Shown here one piece after another: positions 46,960 through 56,400 of a stretch of DNA of 64,000 bases (position 1 is its first letter; the number at the start of each line of letters is the position of its first letter). The notes below the pieces were generated by a model. The model was given only the letters and a program-made list of their open reading frames with translations. It was not told the origin of the DNA and made no database searches. A program made the position numbers and the translations under genes. Source of the stretch: Octopus vulgaris (Eukaryota); NCBI GenBank assembly GCA_951406725.2, contig OX597825.1:83948001-84012000 (forward strand). The letters run 5' to 3'.

Positions 46960-47076
46960 TCAGGCAGTGAAGACATACTTTTGTGTTGGTACACACTGCT
47001 TCTTCTTAATACACTTCCACAGCCACTCGGACGTTATACAGACAGCCGAAGGCGAAGCTGAGCTGACATCACTTTC
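46960..47076 (-). CDS. LIG3: LIG3 last coding exon [38 protein letters not shown]
   Basis: cctcag acceptor; BRCT helix-3 signature EWLWKC; TGA at 46960-46962. Confidence 0.9.
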   Translation of the reverse strand, partial: ESDVSSASPSAVCITSEWLWKCIKKKQCVPTQKYVFTA

Positions 47077-47409: not shown

Positions 47410-50400
47410 CTTCAAATATAATATAGTTTTCATAATATTACTCTATACCGAAATAATAAAAACATTTTAAAAGTTATATCTACAGCCACACACCCACACC
47501 AACACACACACACACTGTGTGTGCATTAAAATATATATGCTAACACATACAATATATATAAACATTAACACATGTATACATACTAACATACATGTTTGCT
47601 AAAACTAAATGCACTGGTATATCTAAACACACACGCACACATAATCTGTATGTACATTAATACATCTATACATACTAAAACAAACATACTAAAACACACA
47701 CACACATACATACAATCTGTAAAACTATTAATGCATTTATACATATTAAGAGATACACATGCACACACACACGCACATATACACAATTTAACTGCACTGG
47801 TACATTATACAACTAAGACACACACATATAGGTATTTTAAACTATAAAATTATTAATATGCTAAGCATAAAATCACATACACATACACAGACAGTTTATA
47901 CATACATTAATGCTAATACACATACACACACACATATATATATACATATTCATACAAACACAATAAACAACAAAATGTAACAAATTTTTACAAAACTTTA
48001 GAAATATAGTTTTTTAAAAATCTATTTCCATAAACAACACCAAAATTTTGCAAATAAAAAATGTTAAGAACATTTTAGAGAGAAAGCTGGGAAAAGAAAA
48101 GTTTGAAAAATTATCATCATCATTTTAATGTCTATTTAAATACCATAAGAGATCAGTCTCACATAGATATCATAAACTGAAAGATCAGTCTTGTAGAGAT
48201 ATCATAAACAGTGAGATCAGTCTTATATGGATTATAAACAGGGTGATCTGTCTTACATAGATTATTGAGAGATCGGTCTCACATAGATCATAAACAAAGA
48301 GATCAGTCTCACATAGGTCATAAACAGTGTGATCTGTCTTACATAGATCATAAACAGAGAGATCAGTCTTACATAGGTCATAAACAGAGAGATCAGTCTT
48401 ACATGGGTCATAAACAGAGAGATCAGTCTCACATAGGTCATAAACAGGGTGATCAGTCTTATATAGGTCTTAAACAGTGTGATCAGTCTCACATAGGTCA
48501 TAAACAGTGTGATCAGTCTCACATAGGTCATAAACAGAGAGATCAGTCTCACATAGGTCATAAACAGAGAGATCAGTCTTACATGGGTCATAAACAGAGA
48601 GATCAGTCTTACATAGGTCATAAACAGAGAGATCAGTCTTACATAGGTCATAAACAGAGAGATCAGTCTCACATAGGTCATAAACAGAGAGATCAGTCTT
48701 ACATAGGTCATAAACAGAGAGATCAGTCTTACATAGGTCATAAACAGAGATCAATCTTACATAGGTCATAAACAGTGTGATCAGTCTTACATAGGTCATA
48801 AACAGAGAGATCAGACTTCTTATTTCGTTATTGCCCACAAGGGGCTAAACACAGAGGGGAGAAACAAGGACAGACAAAGGGATTAAGTCGATTACATCGA
48901 CCCCAGTGCGTAACTGGTACTTTATTTATCAACCACGAAAGAATGAAAGGCAAAGTCGACCTCGGCGGAATTTGAACTCAGAACATAAAGGCAGATGAAA
49001 TATGGTTACGCATTTTGCCCGACGTGCTAACGTTTCTGCCAGCTCGCCTTTTTTTTTATTATTTTTATAAACAGAAATCTCAGACTTCTTATTTCTTTTA
49101 TTGCCCACAAGGGGCTAAACATAGACGAGACAAACAAGGACAGACAAAGGGATTAAGTCGATTACATCGACCCCAGTGCGTAACTGGTACTTAATTTATC
49201 GACCCCGAAAGGATGAAAGGCAAAGTCGACCTCGGTGGAATTTGAACTCAGAACGTAACTGCTAAGCATTTCACCCGGCGTGCTAACATTTCTGCCAGCT
49301 TGCCTTTTTTCTTTTTTTATGACCAGGAAGAAGACTTCTTTTATTCGTTAGATTGGTCACAAGGGCCTTACAAAGAAAAGAAGCTGCGGGCTGGACGAAG
49401 ACATAATGAAATGAAATGATAAACGATATGATAATAACAAGGGCAACAAGCAACACCTGCCGATCGCTGTTTACCCGAGCAGATTGTCCTTTGAAGACTT
49501 CTTACCACACAGCCATGCCTGCAACTATACATATCTGTAAAAAAAAATTATTCAAATCAAAATATAACTGGATGGTCATGGAACTTCTTTGACCAGGGGT
49601 TGGCTGGATTAGAGCTGATCTGAGGGTAGAAACAAATAAGAAATACATTGATCCATGCAAATATCAATAACAATAATTGAATAAAATATCTTGATTGAAC
49701 CTACATTGAGGTCTTTGACAATGACAAGGTGGGTGGCGTTGGAGATGTCATGGTCCGGCAATATTTCTCCATCGAAAGTGCAATTAATTAAGGAAAACAA
49801 TTAGAGAAACACAGACAACTAGAACTGAATACGAGTAACAATGGCACAAAAAATTTATTTATAATAATACGCAGAAATATGGTTGTGTGGTTTGCAATGT
49901 TCACTTTGAAGCAAAGGGGTTTTAGGTTCAATTCTACAGTGTCATACACACACACACATTGAAACATATATCAATAAAATCTATAAAACATTTTGAAAAC
50001 CAATGTTTTTTTCTGGACCAGAATGAAATTCAAAGAGGTTTGTAATTGCATAAATGGTACTTAGTATTAATAGAAGGTATTATTTTGGAACATTGCTTAA
50101 ACAGCAACACAATTTCATAACTTCAGTTGTACAGAGTTTATGATGTTTATGAAAATATTAACACAAAAACCTGAAATTAAATCAAAAGCATGAGACTGGA
50201 GCAGCCATTTTTGCAGGTGCCATTCACAAAGGTTTTTAGACAAAAGGATATAAGGATAAGCATTCTCTTGAAACCTAGATTTCATATTTCAAAAAATATT
50301 CAGACAGAGAATGGGATATAGCCCACATTTTTTATCACAGATCCTGTTGGATCAGAGCTGACCAGGGGCTAAACAACAGCAACAATAACAGAGTCAAGTT

Positions 50401-53400
50401 TATTAGATAGCTTCTGTGTAGCCACTGAACCTACTAGAAATAGCAGCTAAATCCTCTCTCCAAAAAGAGAAGAGCACATTAGACAATGTCCTGGCAAACA
50501 TATCATCATCATCATCGTTTAACGTCTGCTTTCCATGCTAGCATGGGTTGGACGATATATTTAAAAAAACAAGATGGCCCACAGTTGGGACACTTTTGAT
50601 CATAGGTCCTGCAGGATCAGGGCTGAACAAGGGTTGAACAATAACAACAACAAACATCCAACATTGTAACCATAAAAGGATATGCAATAATGAATCTCTT
50701 CAGTTTCTTGTAGGATTCCATGTTTTTAGGGAGGTAAATCTTCATGTTACGGAACACATTGGGCAGAGGATCCGACTGAAGGGGAATGAAAAAAATAAGG
50801 TCACTCATTAATCATGTAATCATTGTGCTATTAGTATCTATGTAATCACTAACTAGTTTCAAATTTTGGCACAAAGCCAGCAATTTTGGGGGAGGGGGTG
50901 AGTCTGTTACATTGACCCCTGTGTTCAAATGGTTCTTACTTTATTGACCCCTAAAGGATGAAAGGCAAAATCACCCTCAGCAGAACCCAGAATGTTAAGA
51001 CAGACGAAATGCTGCCAAGCATTTTGCCTGTTGTGCAAACAGTTCTGTCAGCTTGCCGTCTTGTAATGACTAATTAACCATCATCATCATCATCATCATC
51101 ATTTGACGTGTTTTCTATACTGGCATGGGTTGGATGGTGAGGTGATGGTAGCAACATACCAAGAACCCACCAGCCGTGGAGACCAGTGGTTTTCAACCTT
51201 TTTAATCATCATCATCATCATTTAAAGTTTGTTCTCTATGCTGGCATGGGTTGGATGGTTTGACAAGCTCTTTATGTGCCACTGGCACAGGTGCTACTTA
51301 AGTGGCACCGACACCTGAAAGGACAAGCCTGTATGTATGGAAGACAGCAATTTTGATTAGCTTGACGTGTCTTATCAAGCACAGCAAATCACCACATCTC
51401 CCGGTCCCTTGTCATTTCCTCAGTGAGACCCAACATCCAAAGATCCTTTCTTACCACTTCATCCCAAGTCTTCCTCGGTCTACCTTTCCAGATACACTAG
51501 GGTCAAATCCAAAACCTGGATTTTTTTTTAAAGGGGCCACACCAATAAAAGTAAAGCACAAATCAATTAAAGAAAAACTTATTATATTTATAGAGGGGAG
51601 ACGACTAGGGGCCACCCAATGGTTGCTTGAGGGCCACATGCAGCCCTGGGAGCCACGGTTGAGAATCCCCAATATAGACACTCAAGACACATATCCATTT
51701 TAATGAACACAAAATGGAAGAGAACAATAAGAACAACCTACCAATGGCAACCATCCAACCACTAATTAGCTATGCAATTACTAATTAACTATGTGATTAC
51801 TAATTAACTATATAATTACTAATTAAATATGCAATCACTAATTAACCATGTATTCAGTAATTAACTATGTAATCAATAATTGATCATGAAATCACTGATT
51901 GACCAAATAATTACTAATTAATCACAACAACTATAATTAGCAAAGCTATCATTAATTAACCAAATAGTCACTAACTGACAAAGTAATTATTGATGTGATA
52001 ACTATGTAATCACTAAGTAAGAAAGTAACCTTTACTTAACAAATTAATTATCAATTAACCATGCAATGTATAATTAACAATGTAATCATTAATTTAGTAT
52101 AATTATGAATTAACCATGTAATTCCTAATTAACCATGTAATTATTAATTAACATGGTTAATTAACCATGTTAACTAATGATTTTTGGCATAAACATAAGT
52201 CCGCAGAATATTAAAACTATTTTTCTTGGCAGAATTGTATGGGTAATCTAAAGCTACAAATTTTTAACTTCACTAGGATTTCAATTTGTTGATCTGGAGA
52301 TTAAACAGTAAAACAAGAAATATTTTATACCACAGAAGCACTGGCAGCACCACTTGAAGATGTAGAATGGTCAAAAGCTGCCAAATGTTGAGGATTCTTT
52401 TGGTAACAACCACTGCCATATTTACACATTGGTTTCTTCTCCTGCAAACAGAAAATTAATTCAATTATAACTGAAGAAAAAATCAAATACACATGCAAAA
52501 GTATTGTTATTTAACCCCAGGTCAAACTGTATTGTCCAGGGCTATGAACACAAGTATTCCTGTCAGGAGTAAGTAGGGTGTTTCTTTTGATGTGTCCTTC
52601 ATTGTTAAAGACGGATGACTTTGATTCGAAAGAGATTTAGCAGGTATTTTTAGCAGGACAAACAACCACAAAGGGGTCCTTTCATTGGCTCAAATACAGA
52701 AATATTGATTTTGCTTTCCAGCCTTGCTAGGGACCTACACTCTTTCACAATGAAAGATGCCTCACGCAGCTGGTGTTCAGAGAGCTTGCAACCCATGCTG
52801 ACACATACTTTCATTCCAGAATTGAGTGCTTTTGCTGTTCTAGGCCACAGCCAGCAATAGCATGCATAGAGATGTTAACAGAGATATTAAAAATCAAGCA
52901 CAGGCATTGCTTTTTATAGCTTTTTATAGTGAGAAAAGGTTTTGCACAGGGTCTAATGCTACATCCTAAACAATGAATGCATTTGCCCTAAAAAAAAGAA
53001 CTAATCTACATCATTGGATGCAACATCACAGGGGTTACATCAGAGTTCCCTTTCTCCTACATAGATGTCTAAACAACAACAACAGTAGCCTGATAGAATT
53101 TCTTCACCTTTGATGTTGAGGATTTCTTGTCCCCTCCGTCATTATCCGAACGAGATTTCTGAAGCATTTCATCAATTTTCCGTGCTTTGCTCTTCGAAGA
53201 TTGTCCTGGTGATTCCTGCTCCTCTTTCATCGGAATTTTCCGCTTGACCGGAGTCTTTTGCGGGGATGACTGGCTGTTCTTGTGCTCATCACTGCTTTGC
53301 TCTGCATCTCCTTTGAAGTCATTTTCTTTAGAAGAGTCGTCTGCAGGTGAGACCTTCGGAGTAACGAGATTTGGAAAGTCGGACACCTCTTTTGATGACT

Positions 53401-56400
53401 TGAAAAGTTCCTTTTGAAACAAGCAAAAATAACAGAAAAAGTAAGAATCATAATACATTTCAAGAGGGTTAAATATATATATGCAAAAAGCACTTATGCT
53501 CATGCCACATAAAAAATACCCAGAACATTCCGGAAAGTGGTTGGTGTAGGAAGTGCATCAAGCTATAGACACTTTACCAAAACAGACAATTGGAGCGTGG
53601 TGCAACACCCTGGCTTGCCAGCTCCTGTCAAACCATCCAACCCATGCCAGTATGGCAAATGGACATTAACCCTTTAGCATTTAAACCGGCCTTATCCGGC
53701 CAAAAATATTCTACCTGTTTTATGTTCAAACTAGCCAGATCTGATCTCTCACACCAACCCTACAATATTGTTTAAAAAATTAACAGCTACCTCATCAAAA
53801 TCTCATAGCTACAAGATAATGCATGATTAATTCAAAACAATGTAGATGAAGAAGCATTAATTTTGGCAAAATAATGGGAACACTAAAGGGTTAAATGATG
53901 ATGAAGATAATAATATATGATGAACTACTTTCAATTTCCATCTAATAAAGCCAGCACCACCTTGACTGGCTTCCGTGTCGGTGGCACGTAAAAACCACCA
54001 ACCGATCGGGGTCCGTTTCCAGCCTCCCCTGGCACGTAAAAAGCACCCACTACACTCACAGAGCAAGTGGGGAAAATGGAAAGGACCTTCTTTTCATTGA
54101 CAAACTCACCTTAAGCCTTGGTAGGTCAGTTGCTTCTTTCCAGCTTTTATCTGTTCGTATTTTGGTGAGACGAGGGAACCGAATGGAAATCCCATCAGCT
54201 GTGTGAATTTCAGCCTTGCTAAATTCTGCTCCGGTGATCTCCCAGACTGGCGCCTGATGTGGATCCTCAACAATAAAATCTGGTATGACACTCTTTTTTA
54301 TATTTAACCAAGATGGTACTTTCTGAACATCTTTGCTAATTTTTACCATCTTCAGCTCCTTCTGCAAACGGTCTAAGGTTTTGTCATCGAAACCATTACC
54401 AACTTTGCTAACGGTACACCATTTTTTGGTGAATGGATTGTATACTCCTGTTAAGAACACCGACATAAGTCCACCTAGCAGAGAAGAGAAGTACAATAAA
54501 ACATGAATTCCAGAATACATGAAAGAACGGTAAAACAGAACTGTTTAAAGATGACAATATGAATAGAGTGGAGGCGCAGTGGCCCAGTGGTTAGGGCAGC
54601 GGACTCACGGTTGTAGGATCACGGTTTCAATTCCTAGACCGGGCATTGTGAGTGTTTATTGAGCGAAAACACCTAAAGTTCCATGAGGCCAGCGGGGTGG
54701 CATCACTTGAAGGCTAAAACAATGCAAAGCGCATTGTGACCAGCGATGTGTAGCAACATCTGATAGCCTGGTCGGTCACGGTGATATGAATAGAGGCATG
54801 ACTGTGAGATTAAACAGTTCACAGTGCTGGTGATATAATGAAATACACCCAGTTGAGAGAGTAAAATGTTTGGTGACCAGAAACCTGCTATCCTTGGTCT
54901 GTCCAACAAGCCTTTCACCACCCTAATCCCTATGCCTAACCCATCATCCCTTGGACATTATCCCACTGTAATCACCAATGGGTTTTTGAGCTCAATATTC
55001 TACAAGCTATTATTTACAACTTTATCGAATTCAAGTTCCACCAATAAAAAAAAATGATTTATTTTTATGTTTTACTGGTTTATTGTGTTTTGTTTCATGA
55101 ACAGAATAACTTTCAGACGACATGCTGGGTGGAGAACAAGGGACCAATATAATTCACAAAAACCCTTGAAGGTGGTGCTCCAGCATGGCCACAGCCCAAA
55201 AGACTGAAACTTAGTAAACAAACAAATAAAGGAATTCAGGGGGGGAAAAAAAATCACAGACGTAAAAAAATTTAAACAAAATCTAAATTGAAAAACTTTT
55301 TGAAATACCTTTATTTCCGGTGCCGTAGTAAGCTCCAAGAACAACCAAATCAGCAGAGTCTGCCATACTTCCTTGTTCCAAATAATCTTTTTTCACTTTC
55401 AACCAATGTCTCTTGCCTGGTTCATAAATACTCTAATCACAGTGAGAAAGAATGATTTGTATTAGAGCAGATATCAGGTGTGAAATATGAAGATAGGAGT
55501 CACCACCCCCACCTATATGGCTCTGAACCCTGGACGTTATCAAAGAAGCTTGAGAGGCGGTTGGATGGAACTTACACTCGCCTCCTTATGAGAGCTCAGA
55601 ATCTCTCGTGGAAGCATCATCCAACCAAAGTACAAATATATGGGAAATTACCACCTGTGTCATCTCTTGTGAAAGGTAGAAGAGTCCAGTTTGCTGGACA
55701 TTGTTGTAGAGCTGCAAACGAGGTAATTTCTACTTTTCTCCTCTGGAAGCCATTTGCTCGCGATACCAGAGGGCGCACACACTCCTACCCTGATGTTATC
55801 TCCAGGGATACAGGCATCCAGCGACGGGACCTCCGTAATGCTATGATGGACCGTGAAGTCTGGAGTAACATAGTAAATTCCATTGTCTCGACCACAGTCG
55901 AACAATGATTATGATGATGATGTGTCTCACCACCCACCTGCAACCCCAAGGTTAATCCTTCTCCTACAAAAGTATCAACCCTTTGGAATTCTTGGACATA
56001 TTCCAGTGTCTGCAGAGAAAACCTAACTTAAAGAGAGACACTTCTAACTGAACACCACAGAGTCGTATCAGTCACTCATCTCCAGATGTTTGTGTGGACA
56101 CTTGGCTTAGTGGTTAAGGTGTCGCACTCATAATTGCGAGATCCTGAGTTCAATTCTCAGACCAGGCATTGCATCGTGTTCTTTAGCAGAAGCACTTCAT
56201 TTCACGTTGCTCTGCGATCATTTTGACATCTGACATGTGGCACCCGGTGCACCTGTACAGGTAATGTGAAACTATGCTTCACCTAACACCACCCGTCTAC
56301 AGAACCAGCCCCACACCAATCCAGATATTGATTCACAGGCATTTCCAATCAGTATTGATCTCACCAGCCTCATCCATTGGCATAGGCCACAAGGTTATGG

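What the first reader, a model, noticed from the sequence alone, without database searches (positions are those of the whole stretch)
52331..52441. Extra PBZ (poly(ADP-ribose)-binding zinc finger) exon in LIG3 between the OB fold and the BRCT
Seen: a clean 111-nt phase 0-0 exon, too short for the ORF track, encoding [23 protein letters not shown]. Known: this fits the PBZ consensus of APLF and CHFR, and vertebrate LIG3 has no PBZ; PBZ fusions to repair enzymes, including ligases, are reported in some non-vertebrates. Inference: this ligase may bind PAR directly at breaks, independently of XRCC1. The exon is symmetric and could be skipped in frame. Together with the U12 intron just downstream, this suggests two separately switchable recruitment modules (PAR via PBZ, XRCC1 via BRCT). 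The usual Arg after CY is Gln here, which may weaken PAR binding.
Basis: partly seen in the sequence, partly recalled or inferred. Interest (0 to 1): 0.72.

Follow-up and report, generated by a model that had tools for sequence, protein, structure and literature searches.

The report
Ancestral PAR-reader finger in ligase III
The octopus gene for DNA ligase III has a spliced-in exon for a small zinc finger that likely grips poly(ADP-ribose), the flag cells raise at DNA breaks; the same finger sits in this enzyme in corals, molluscs, starfish and amphioxus but in none of the vertebrates checked, so it is likely an old part that our lineage lost, not an octopus invention.

Summary
The exon is real: 111 nt, phase 0-0, minus strand, Pfam PBZ 48.3 bits (cut-off 22.7), between the OB fold and BRCT of Octopus LIG3. 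It is spliced in in all 8 transcript assemblies laid; no skipping joint or U12-intron retention was seen (contigs drop rare forms). It is not an octopus extra. A PBZ sits at the same place in LIG3 of a sponge, cnidarians, molluscs, an annelid, a brachiopod, echinoderms, amphioxus, a centipede and nematodes, but in 0 of 49 vertebrate records, so it is likely ancestral and repeatedly lost. The Gln is not decay: 49 of 51 BRCT-bearing animal LIG3 fingers have it. All 19 BRCT-less nematode fingers have the canonical Arg, while Plectus, which keeps BRCT, has Gln. XRCC1 is present in this genome. Best reading (0.6): a constitutive, likely low-affinity PAR contact that adds avidity to XRCC1-led recruitment, not a switchable bypass. 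PAR binding is untested. The architecture is already in Pfam annotations; I found no paper describing it, but key papers were unavailable. Modest interest.

The parts
52331..52441 (-). PBZ exon of LIG3, 111 nt, phase 0-0 (residues 900-936 of P0122)
   Evidence: splice joints
52367..52435 (-). PBZ core K902-H924: C905, C911, H918, H924 (predicted zinc ligands), Y907 and Y912 (predicted adenine contacts), F922
   Evidence: Pfam PF10283; alignment to APLF; folded island in the model
52400..52402 (-). Gln913 codon, at the place of APLF Arg387/Arg429
   Evidence: sequence; alignment; conservation
53108..53410 (-). Exon for the poorly conserved, predicted disordered OB-to-PBZ tether
   Evidence: no Pfam hit; top-residue fraction 0.28; pLDDT under 50 for 808-900; joints
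54110..54474 (-). OB-fold exon of the ligase core
   Evidence: PF04679 54.5 bits; joint
50684..50775 (-). First BRCT exon
   Evidence: PF16759 at 939-1017 of P0122; joints
49778..50683 (-). U12-type AT-AC intron inside the BRCT (ATATCCTTT donor, TTCCTTAAT branch-like site, AC acceptor; consensus recalled)
   Evidence: sequence; joint 49777/50684 in 8 of 8 runs
49705..49777 (-). Second BRCT exon
46960..47076 (-). Last coding exon (end of BRCT and stop codon)
   Evidence: loose ends at 49704 match this exon in 4 of 4 runs; translation equals the end of P0122
55308..63702 (-). Upstream exons of the DNA-binding and adenylation domains (boundaries approximate; the gene continues beyond the window)
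   Evidence: agreement with P0002/P0122 read by eye

Best explanation
This exon is spliced into the octopus DNA ligase III mRNA and encodes a PBZ-family zinc finger that likely gives the ligase its own, probably weak, grip on poly(ADP-ribose) at DNA breaks, adding to XRCC1-led recruitment, and it is likely an ancestral animal feature lost in vertebrates. Shown here: exon, inclusion, family match, position, distribution across phyla, conserved Gln, presence of XRCC1, HPF1 and a PARP1-type PADR1 exon in the genome. Inferred from vertebrate work: PARP1 makes PAR at a single-strand break; XRCC1 binds PAR by BRCT1 and carries LIG3 by BRCT2-BRCT pairing. Inferred from homology: C905/C911/H918/H924 hold zinc and Y907/Y912 stack adenines of adjacent ADP-ribose units. 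Inferred, untested: Gln913 replaces a phosphate-binding Arg, so the lone finger binds weakly and works by avidity within the XRCC1-LIG3 complex, on a tether of about 90 residues that lets the catalytic core reach the nick.
For: Family match and all four ligands plus both tyrosines present. In 48 PBZ-bearing LIG3s (chosen for having the finger) top-residue fraction is 0.67 in the finger against 0.28 and 0.30 in the flanking linkers; Y907 48/48, Y/F912 48/48, Q913 47/48. Model: residues 901-920 at pLDDT about 75 between low-confidence linkers. Distribution: molluscs 28/30, cnidarians 11/13, echinoderm/hemichordate 5/5, amphioxus 3/3, nematodes 20/27, sponges 1/2, arthropods 1/22, vertebrates 0/49. 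The ligase-core trees roughly follow phyla, with amphioxus (PBZ) sister to vertebrates (none) and nematodes one clade inside animal LIG3. Gln in 49 of 51 BRCT-bearing animal fingers; Arg in 19 of 19 BRCT-less nematode fingers; Gln in Plectus, which keeps BRCT. Other PBZs of this genome have Arg. A single PBZ fused to a repair protein binds PAR and aids retention in Dictyostelium Ku70 (PMC3153639, passages). Two tandem PBZs bind over 1000-fold better than one (PMC4030884, passages). R387/R429 contact phosphates (PMC6264785 figure legend). C. elegans has no XRCC1 in that paper's KEGG table.
Against: No binding data exist here. The published consensus wants two basic residues after Cx (PMC4756826); this finger has Gln-Lys, and many relatives Gln-Thr (K 23, T 19 of 48). 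The SNM1A PBZ is said to lack key residues and may not bind PAR, so a Pfam hit does not prove binding. The finger is dispensable in many lineages: vertebrates, 21 of 22 arthropod records, bryozoans, Capitella, and cephalopod proteins sister to octopods; it is degenerate in Aplysia, Lamellibrachia and one Acropora record. The Gln/Arg link with BRCT rests on one nematode event; Hydra and two unnamed proteins have Arg with BRCT. Independent gains at the same place are not formally excluded; trees were quick searches with several open forks.
Confidence: 0.6

Rival explanations
1. The finger is a strong, stand-alone PAR reader that recruits LIG3 independently of XRCC1.
For: Dictyostelium Ku70's single PBZ is enough for PAR binding. 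Nematode LIG3 keeps zf-PARP and PBZ but has no BRCT, and the C. elegans orthologue K07C5.3 was enriched on abasic DNA (PMC10220248). This may be true in nematodes.
Against: Octopus keeps both the LIG3 BRCT and XRCC1 with BRCT2. The BRCT-less nematode fingers all carry Arg, the octopus finger does not. In mammals XRCC1 is needed for nuclear LIG3 stability (PMC11838041).
Confidence: 0.14
2. The Gln-type finger has a different ligand: mono-ADP-ribose, branched PAR, single-stranded nucleic acid or a partner protein.
For: Gln is nearly invariant from sponge to amphioxus, which looks like positive constraint, not mere loss of Arg. PBZ folds resemble RNA-binding CCCH fingers. APLF PBZs also contact HLTF (PMC11162786).
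Against: Both adenine-stacking tyrosines are kept; PBZ distribution tracks PARPs (PMC4245714); the nematode lineage shows Gln and Arg interchange in the same finger.
Confidence: 0.16
3. The finger is a near-neutral relic in octopus, on its way out.
For: Lost in the sister cephalopod lineage (10 of 10 Logan records that reach the C-terminus lack it) and degenerate in Aplysia.
Against: Intact in three Octopus species and Argonauta while the neighbouring linker diverges.
Confidence: 0.06
4. The exon and the U12 intron are regulated splice switches giving PBZ-less and BRCT-less ligases.
For: Exon is symmetric. An annotated O. vulgaris isoform (P0123) lacks the BRCT through GT-AG sites flanking the U12 intron. 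BRCT-less isoform models exist for amphioxus. Mammalian LIG3-beta drops the BRCT by splicing (PMC4488670).
Against: Only inclusion joints in the complete table and among shown rows. All four named Octopus LIG3 records keep the PBZ. P0123 may be a gene-model artefact of an AT-AC intron (inference).
Confidence: 0.04

Closest known systems
Vertebrate DNA ligase III alpha (PDB 3l2p; BRCT 3pc7/3qvg/6wh1)
   Same: Orthologue with zf-PARP, DBD, adenylation, OB and LIG3-type BRCT
   Different: No PBZ between OB and BRCT in 49 vertebrate records
PBZ of human APLF (PDB 2kqb, 2kuo) and CHFR; Pfam PF10283
   Same: C-x5-C-x6-H-x5-H, both tyrosines, G, N-P, final aromatic
   Different: Single finger, not tandem as in APLF; Gln where APLF has Arg387/429; fused to a ligase
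Dictyostelium Ku70-PBZ and LIG3-macrodomain
   Same: An ADP-ribose reader fused directly to a repair factor that lacks it in vertebrates (PMC3153639, PMC5087659, passages)
   Different: Dictyostelium LIG3 carries a macrodomain, not a PBZ; Ku70 PBZ binding was shown by experiment
Bdelloid and Mortierella ligase E/K with PBZ
   Same: ATP-dependent DNA ligase with C-terminal PBZ (PMC10665377, PMC6264785, passages)
   Different: Horizontally acquired bacterial-type ligase, a different lineage from LIG3; no XRCC1-binding BRCT
Nematode LIG3 (C. elegans K07C5.3 is named the LIG3 orthologue in PMC10220248 and PMC3195855)
   Same: Nematode relatives carry the same finger after the OB fold. I recall, unchecked, that Ahel et al. 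2008 listed a C. elegans DNA ligase among PBZ proteins
   Different: Rhabditid and spirurid forms end at the finger, lack BRCT and have Arg; the C. elegans sequence itself was not retrieved

Membership tests
PBZ (PF10283) | Profile score above Pfam cut-off | tested here: met
   48.3 bits vs 22.7
PBZ (PF10283) | C-x5-C-x6-H-x5-H zinc ligands | tested here: met
   C905, C911, H918, H924
PBZ (PF10283) | [K/R]xxCx[F/Y]G and final [F/Y]xH of the published consensus | tested here: met
   K902-P-M-C-K-Y-G and F922-D-H (consensus)
PBZ (PF10283) | Adenine-contacting tyrosines (APLF Y381/Y386) | tested here: met
   Y907, Y912
PBZ (PF10283) | Two basic residues after Cx, the first a phosphate-binding Arg | tested here: not met
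   Gln913-Lys914; one of two basic. A conserved sub-type, so filed as a PBZ variant
PBZ (PF10283) | PBZ three-dimensional fold | tested here: inconclusive
   Model gives a folded island at pLDDT about 75; no fold search was run on it
PBZ (PF10283) | Zinc-dependent binding to PAR | not testable with these tools
   needs a binding assay
DNA ligase III | zf-PARP + DBD + adenylation + OB + LIG3 BRCT | tested here: met
   P0122, all five above cut-off
DNA ligase III | Closest solved ligase is LIG3, not LIG1/LIG4 | tested here: met
   3l2p 875 bits vs 165 for LIG1 and 157 for LIG4
DNA ligase III | BRCT-BRCT2 binding to XRCC1 | not tested
   both domains are encoded; binding not modelled
Regulated cassette exon | Skipping isoform exists | tested here: inconclusive
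   none seen in contigs of 8 runs; contigs show presence, not absence
U12-type intron | AT-AC ends with ATATCCTTT donor and branch motif, spliced at those ends | tested here: met
   consensus recalled

The most novel reading that the evidence does not exclude
Ancestral animal LIG3 was a direct PAR reader with a Gln-tuned PBZ built to work in partnership with XRCC1. Vertebrates, insects and some cephalopods dropped the finger and rely on XRCC1. Rhabditid and spirurid nematodes did the reverse: they dropped the BRCT (and XRCC1) and switched the finger to the high-affinity Arg form, making their little-studied LIG3 a self-recruiting ligase. One residue would thus record which recruitment route a lineage uses.
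Probability: 0.3. Interest if true: 0.62.

Novelty: new variant of a known kind. Interest (0 to 1): 0.38.

Why it matters
The textbook LIG3, which reaches PAR mainly through XRCC1, would be a derived vertebrate state. The result gives a natural Gln/Arg pair to test what tunes PBZ affinity. It also suggests how nematodes, which appear to lack XRCC1, target their LIG3 orthologue; one paper calls the C. elegans base-excision-repair ligase an open question (PMC10220248). It says nothing special about octopus biology, and PBZ fusions to repair enzymes are a known theme.

Tried and rejected
No RNA holder listed: one search had no run on record as RNA; the runs laid are 'RNA guessed' or unlabelled contigs, and I rely only on their spliced joints. 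Depth figures were not used. Skipping, U12 retention and the P0123 cryptic joint were looked for and not seen; contigs cannot show absence. A homologue search on the PBZ+BRCT region returned only 3 known proteins. A BRCT_2 genome search missed XRCC1 BRCT2 and Pfam did not recognise its split exons; it was found with a home-made BRCT profile and confirmed against PDB. The XRCC1 BRCT1 exon call (L030:29-166) rests on that weak profile hit and recall. Protein 3 was in the wrong frame and is uninformative; so is. 'Clean loss of the symmetric exon' in the sister cephalopods was considered: flanking basic and spacer residues remain, so it is not shown. The careful tree did not finish; quick trees were used. 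No complex prediction was sent: a ligand cannot be scored and LIG3-XRCC1 is a textbook pair. Not held, so unread: Ahel 2008, Iles 2007, Eustermann 2010, Oberoi 2010, Li 2010, Simsek and Jasin 2011. Earlier scan notes: nothing for this place, sequence or LIG3 words.

Full report
1. Observation. The stretch 52441-52331 on the minus strand is a 111-nt exon with AG and GT ends encoding [37 protein letters not shown]. It scores 48.3 bits on Pfam PF10283, cut-off 22.7, and matches the solved APLF fingers at E 2.6e-13. The last six exons (54474-54110, 53410-53108, 52441-52331, 50775-50684, 49777-49705, 47076-46960) translate without a break to a stretch contained exactly in P0122, which its source names Octopus vulgaris DNA ligase 3-like. 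P0122 has zf-PARP, DBD, adenylation, OB, PBZ (902-924) and LIG3 BRCT (939-1017) domains, and its best solved relative is human LIG3.

2. Splicing. I laid 8 of the 24 runs listed, from 5 study codes; all are assembled contigs and none is on record as RNA. The downstream joint and the AT-AC joint appear in 8 of 8, the upstream joint in 7 of 8. Single contigs of 1.0 to 3.6 kb run through linker, PBZ and BRCT exons in order. (4 runs, 98% likeness) gives a complete table of three joints, all inclusion. One search shows 15 of 70 joint rows, none a skip. Low-depth intronic pieces exist (for example 52439-52680 at depth 2.2) but none shown spans the U12 intron. So inclusion is the main form; rare skipping is not excluded. 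One annotated O. vulgaris isoform (P0123) keeps the PBZ and loses the BRCT through a GT at 50750 and an AG ending at 49825; that joint was not seen.

3. Distribution. Three searches brought in relatives: best 120 of 1256, OB exon as query; best 150 of 8481; best 120 of 1712, a nematode query that includes a PBZ and so favours PBZ bearers. From about 395 proteins held I scored 161 named records, leaving out unnamed ones, most duplicate isoforms and two records flagged as contaminants, with a profile built from the LIG3 fingers themselves. A finger after the OB fold was found in molluscs 28/30, cnidarians 11/13, annelid-brachiopod-nemertean-bryozoan 4/7, echinoderm-hemichordate 5/5, amphioxus 3/3, sponges 1/2, nematodes 20/27, arthropods 1/22 (centipede), priapulid 0/1, glaucophytes 2/2 and vertebrates 0/49. 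The mollusc and cnidarian misses also lack the BRCT and look truncated; two filarial models read out break off inside the finger. Quick trees of the ligase core put amphioxus next to vertebrates (93; left open), two unnamed PBZ-less proteins as sister to octopods inside a cephalopod clade (100) and nematodes as one clade within animal LIG3 (100). The simplest reading is one old finger lost several times. Tunicates, lampreys, crustaceans, flies, placozoans and ctenophores were not among the named records scored.

4. The Gln. Among animal fingers that sit before a BRCT, 49 of 51 have Gln after C-[YFH]; Hydra has Arg and the centipede Leu. Three more Gln records lack a BRCT but look truncated. 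All 19 BRCT-less nematode fingers have Arg, as do the two glaucophytes, while Plectus, the one nematode with a BRCT, has Gln. Two unnamed, more distant proteins have Arg with BRCT. In this genome the PBZ 5 kb upstream of the HPF1 exons, a tandem APLF-like pair and a third locus have Arg (the APLF label is my inference). The Gln is therefore specific to LIG3 and old. Its link with BRCT loss is one evolutionary event and only a lead.

5. Context. XRCC1 lies on contig C20: N-terminal exons and BRCT2 exons matching solved XRCC1 at E 8.8e-9. A PARP1-type PADR1 exon is on C11. In the AlphaFold model the finger is a modestly confident island between low-confidence stretches 808-900 and 927-938; conservation shows the same pattern.

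6. Mechanism. From vertebrate work (PMC11838041, passages), XRCC1 binds PAR by BRCT1 and carries LIG3 on BRCT2. A PBZ reads two adjacent ADP-ribose units, and two fingers bind over 1000-fold better than one (PMC4030884, passages). APLF's tyrosines contact adenine and R387/R429 the phosphates (PMC6264785, figure legend). Octopus LIG3 keeps the tyrosines and lacks that Arg. I infer a weak lone reader that adds avidity and residence time for the XRCC1-LIG3 complex (0.6). Rivals: stand-alone recruitment 0.14, another ligand 0.16, relic 0.06, splice switch 0.04.

7. What is known. PBZ fusions to repair proteins are established: Dictyostelium Ku70 (PMC3153639, passages) and bdelloid ligase E/K (PMC10665377, PMC6264785, passages). 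Dictyostelium LIG3 has a macrodomain (PMC5087659, passages). Human LIG3 is already listed as a PAR binder through a short PBM motif (PMC4756826, table passage). The LIG3-PBZ architecture is in precomputed Pfam annotation of many invertebrate proteins, so it is catalogued. Six full-text searches aimed at it (listings only, plus passages of 12 papers, no supplements read) showed no paper describing a PBZ in animal LIG3, its vertebrate loss or the Gln signature. The library lacks Ahel 2008 and Simsek and Jasin 2011; from recall the former lists a C. elegans DNA ligase with a PBZ, which would mean the nematode case is in print. Other papers seen as passages only: PMC4488670, PMC4245714, PMC10220248, PMC3195855, PMC11162786.

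8. Verdict. Observation confirmed; interpretation partly supported. A real, mainly constitutive, likely ancestral PBZ variant in LIG3. New variant of a known kind, interest 0.38; the nematode Gln-to-Arg and BRCT-loss story is the part worth an experiment.

Noticed in passing
window 53107-53099 vs 52441-52433 (minus strand): The intron donor after the linker exon (GTGAAGAAA) differs by one base from the start of the PBZ exon (GAGAAGAAA), which blurs read placement at this joint.
   Followed up: partly
window 50750 and 49825 (minus strand): GT and AG sites flanking the AT-AC intron are used in the annotated BRCT-less isoform P0123; not seen in contigs, possibly a gene-model artefact.
   Followed up: partly
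P0003, P0006 and cluster members (unnamed Logan proteins): Cephalopod LIG3s sister to octopods lack the finger; flanking basic residues remain.
   Followed up: partly
P0134 (Aplysia), P0025 (Lamellibrachia), P0021 (Acropora palmata): Degenerate fingers: first Cys to Gly, first Cys to Tyr, last His to Gln.
   Followed up: no
P0200, P0240 (glaucophytes Gloeochaete, Cyanophora); unnamed P0190, P0257, P0283: LIG3-like ligases outside animals also carry a C-terminal Arg-type PBZ (two in P0283), so the fusion may predate animals or recur.
   Followed up: partly
L001 (G000:C20:70994138-70994215): PBZ exon about 5 kb upstream of HPF1 exons on the same strand; likely an N-terminal PBZ on octopus HPF1.
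   Followed up: partly
L004 (G000:C6:129595258-129595317): A PBZ (C-T-R type) at the end of a long Ser-rich open frame; gene not identified.
   Followed up: no
P0002/P0122 residues 1-62: N-terminal extension before a second Met at 63, resembling the mitochondrial leader of vertebrate LIG3; lies outside the window, not tested.
   Followed up: no
P0057 vs P0135 (Nematostella): An older gene model omits exactly the PBZ segment and has a two-residue insertion at the position of the octopus U12 intron, hinting at similar exon boundaries in a cnidarian.
   Followed up: no
window about 48150-48810: Tandem array with a unit of roughly 30 bases in the last LIG3 intron, seen by eye.
   Followed up: no
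window about 51770-52180: AT-rich degenerate repeat region in the intron after the PBZ exon, seen by eye.
   Followed up: no
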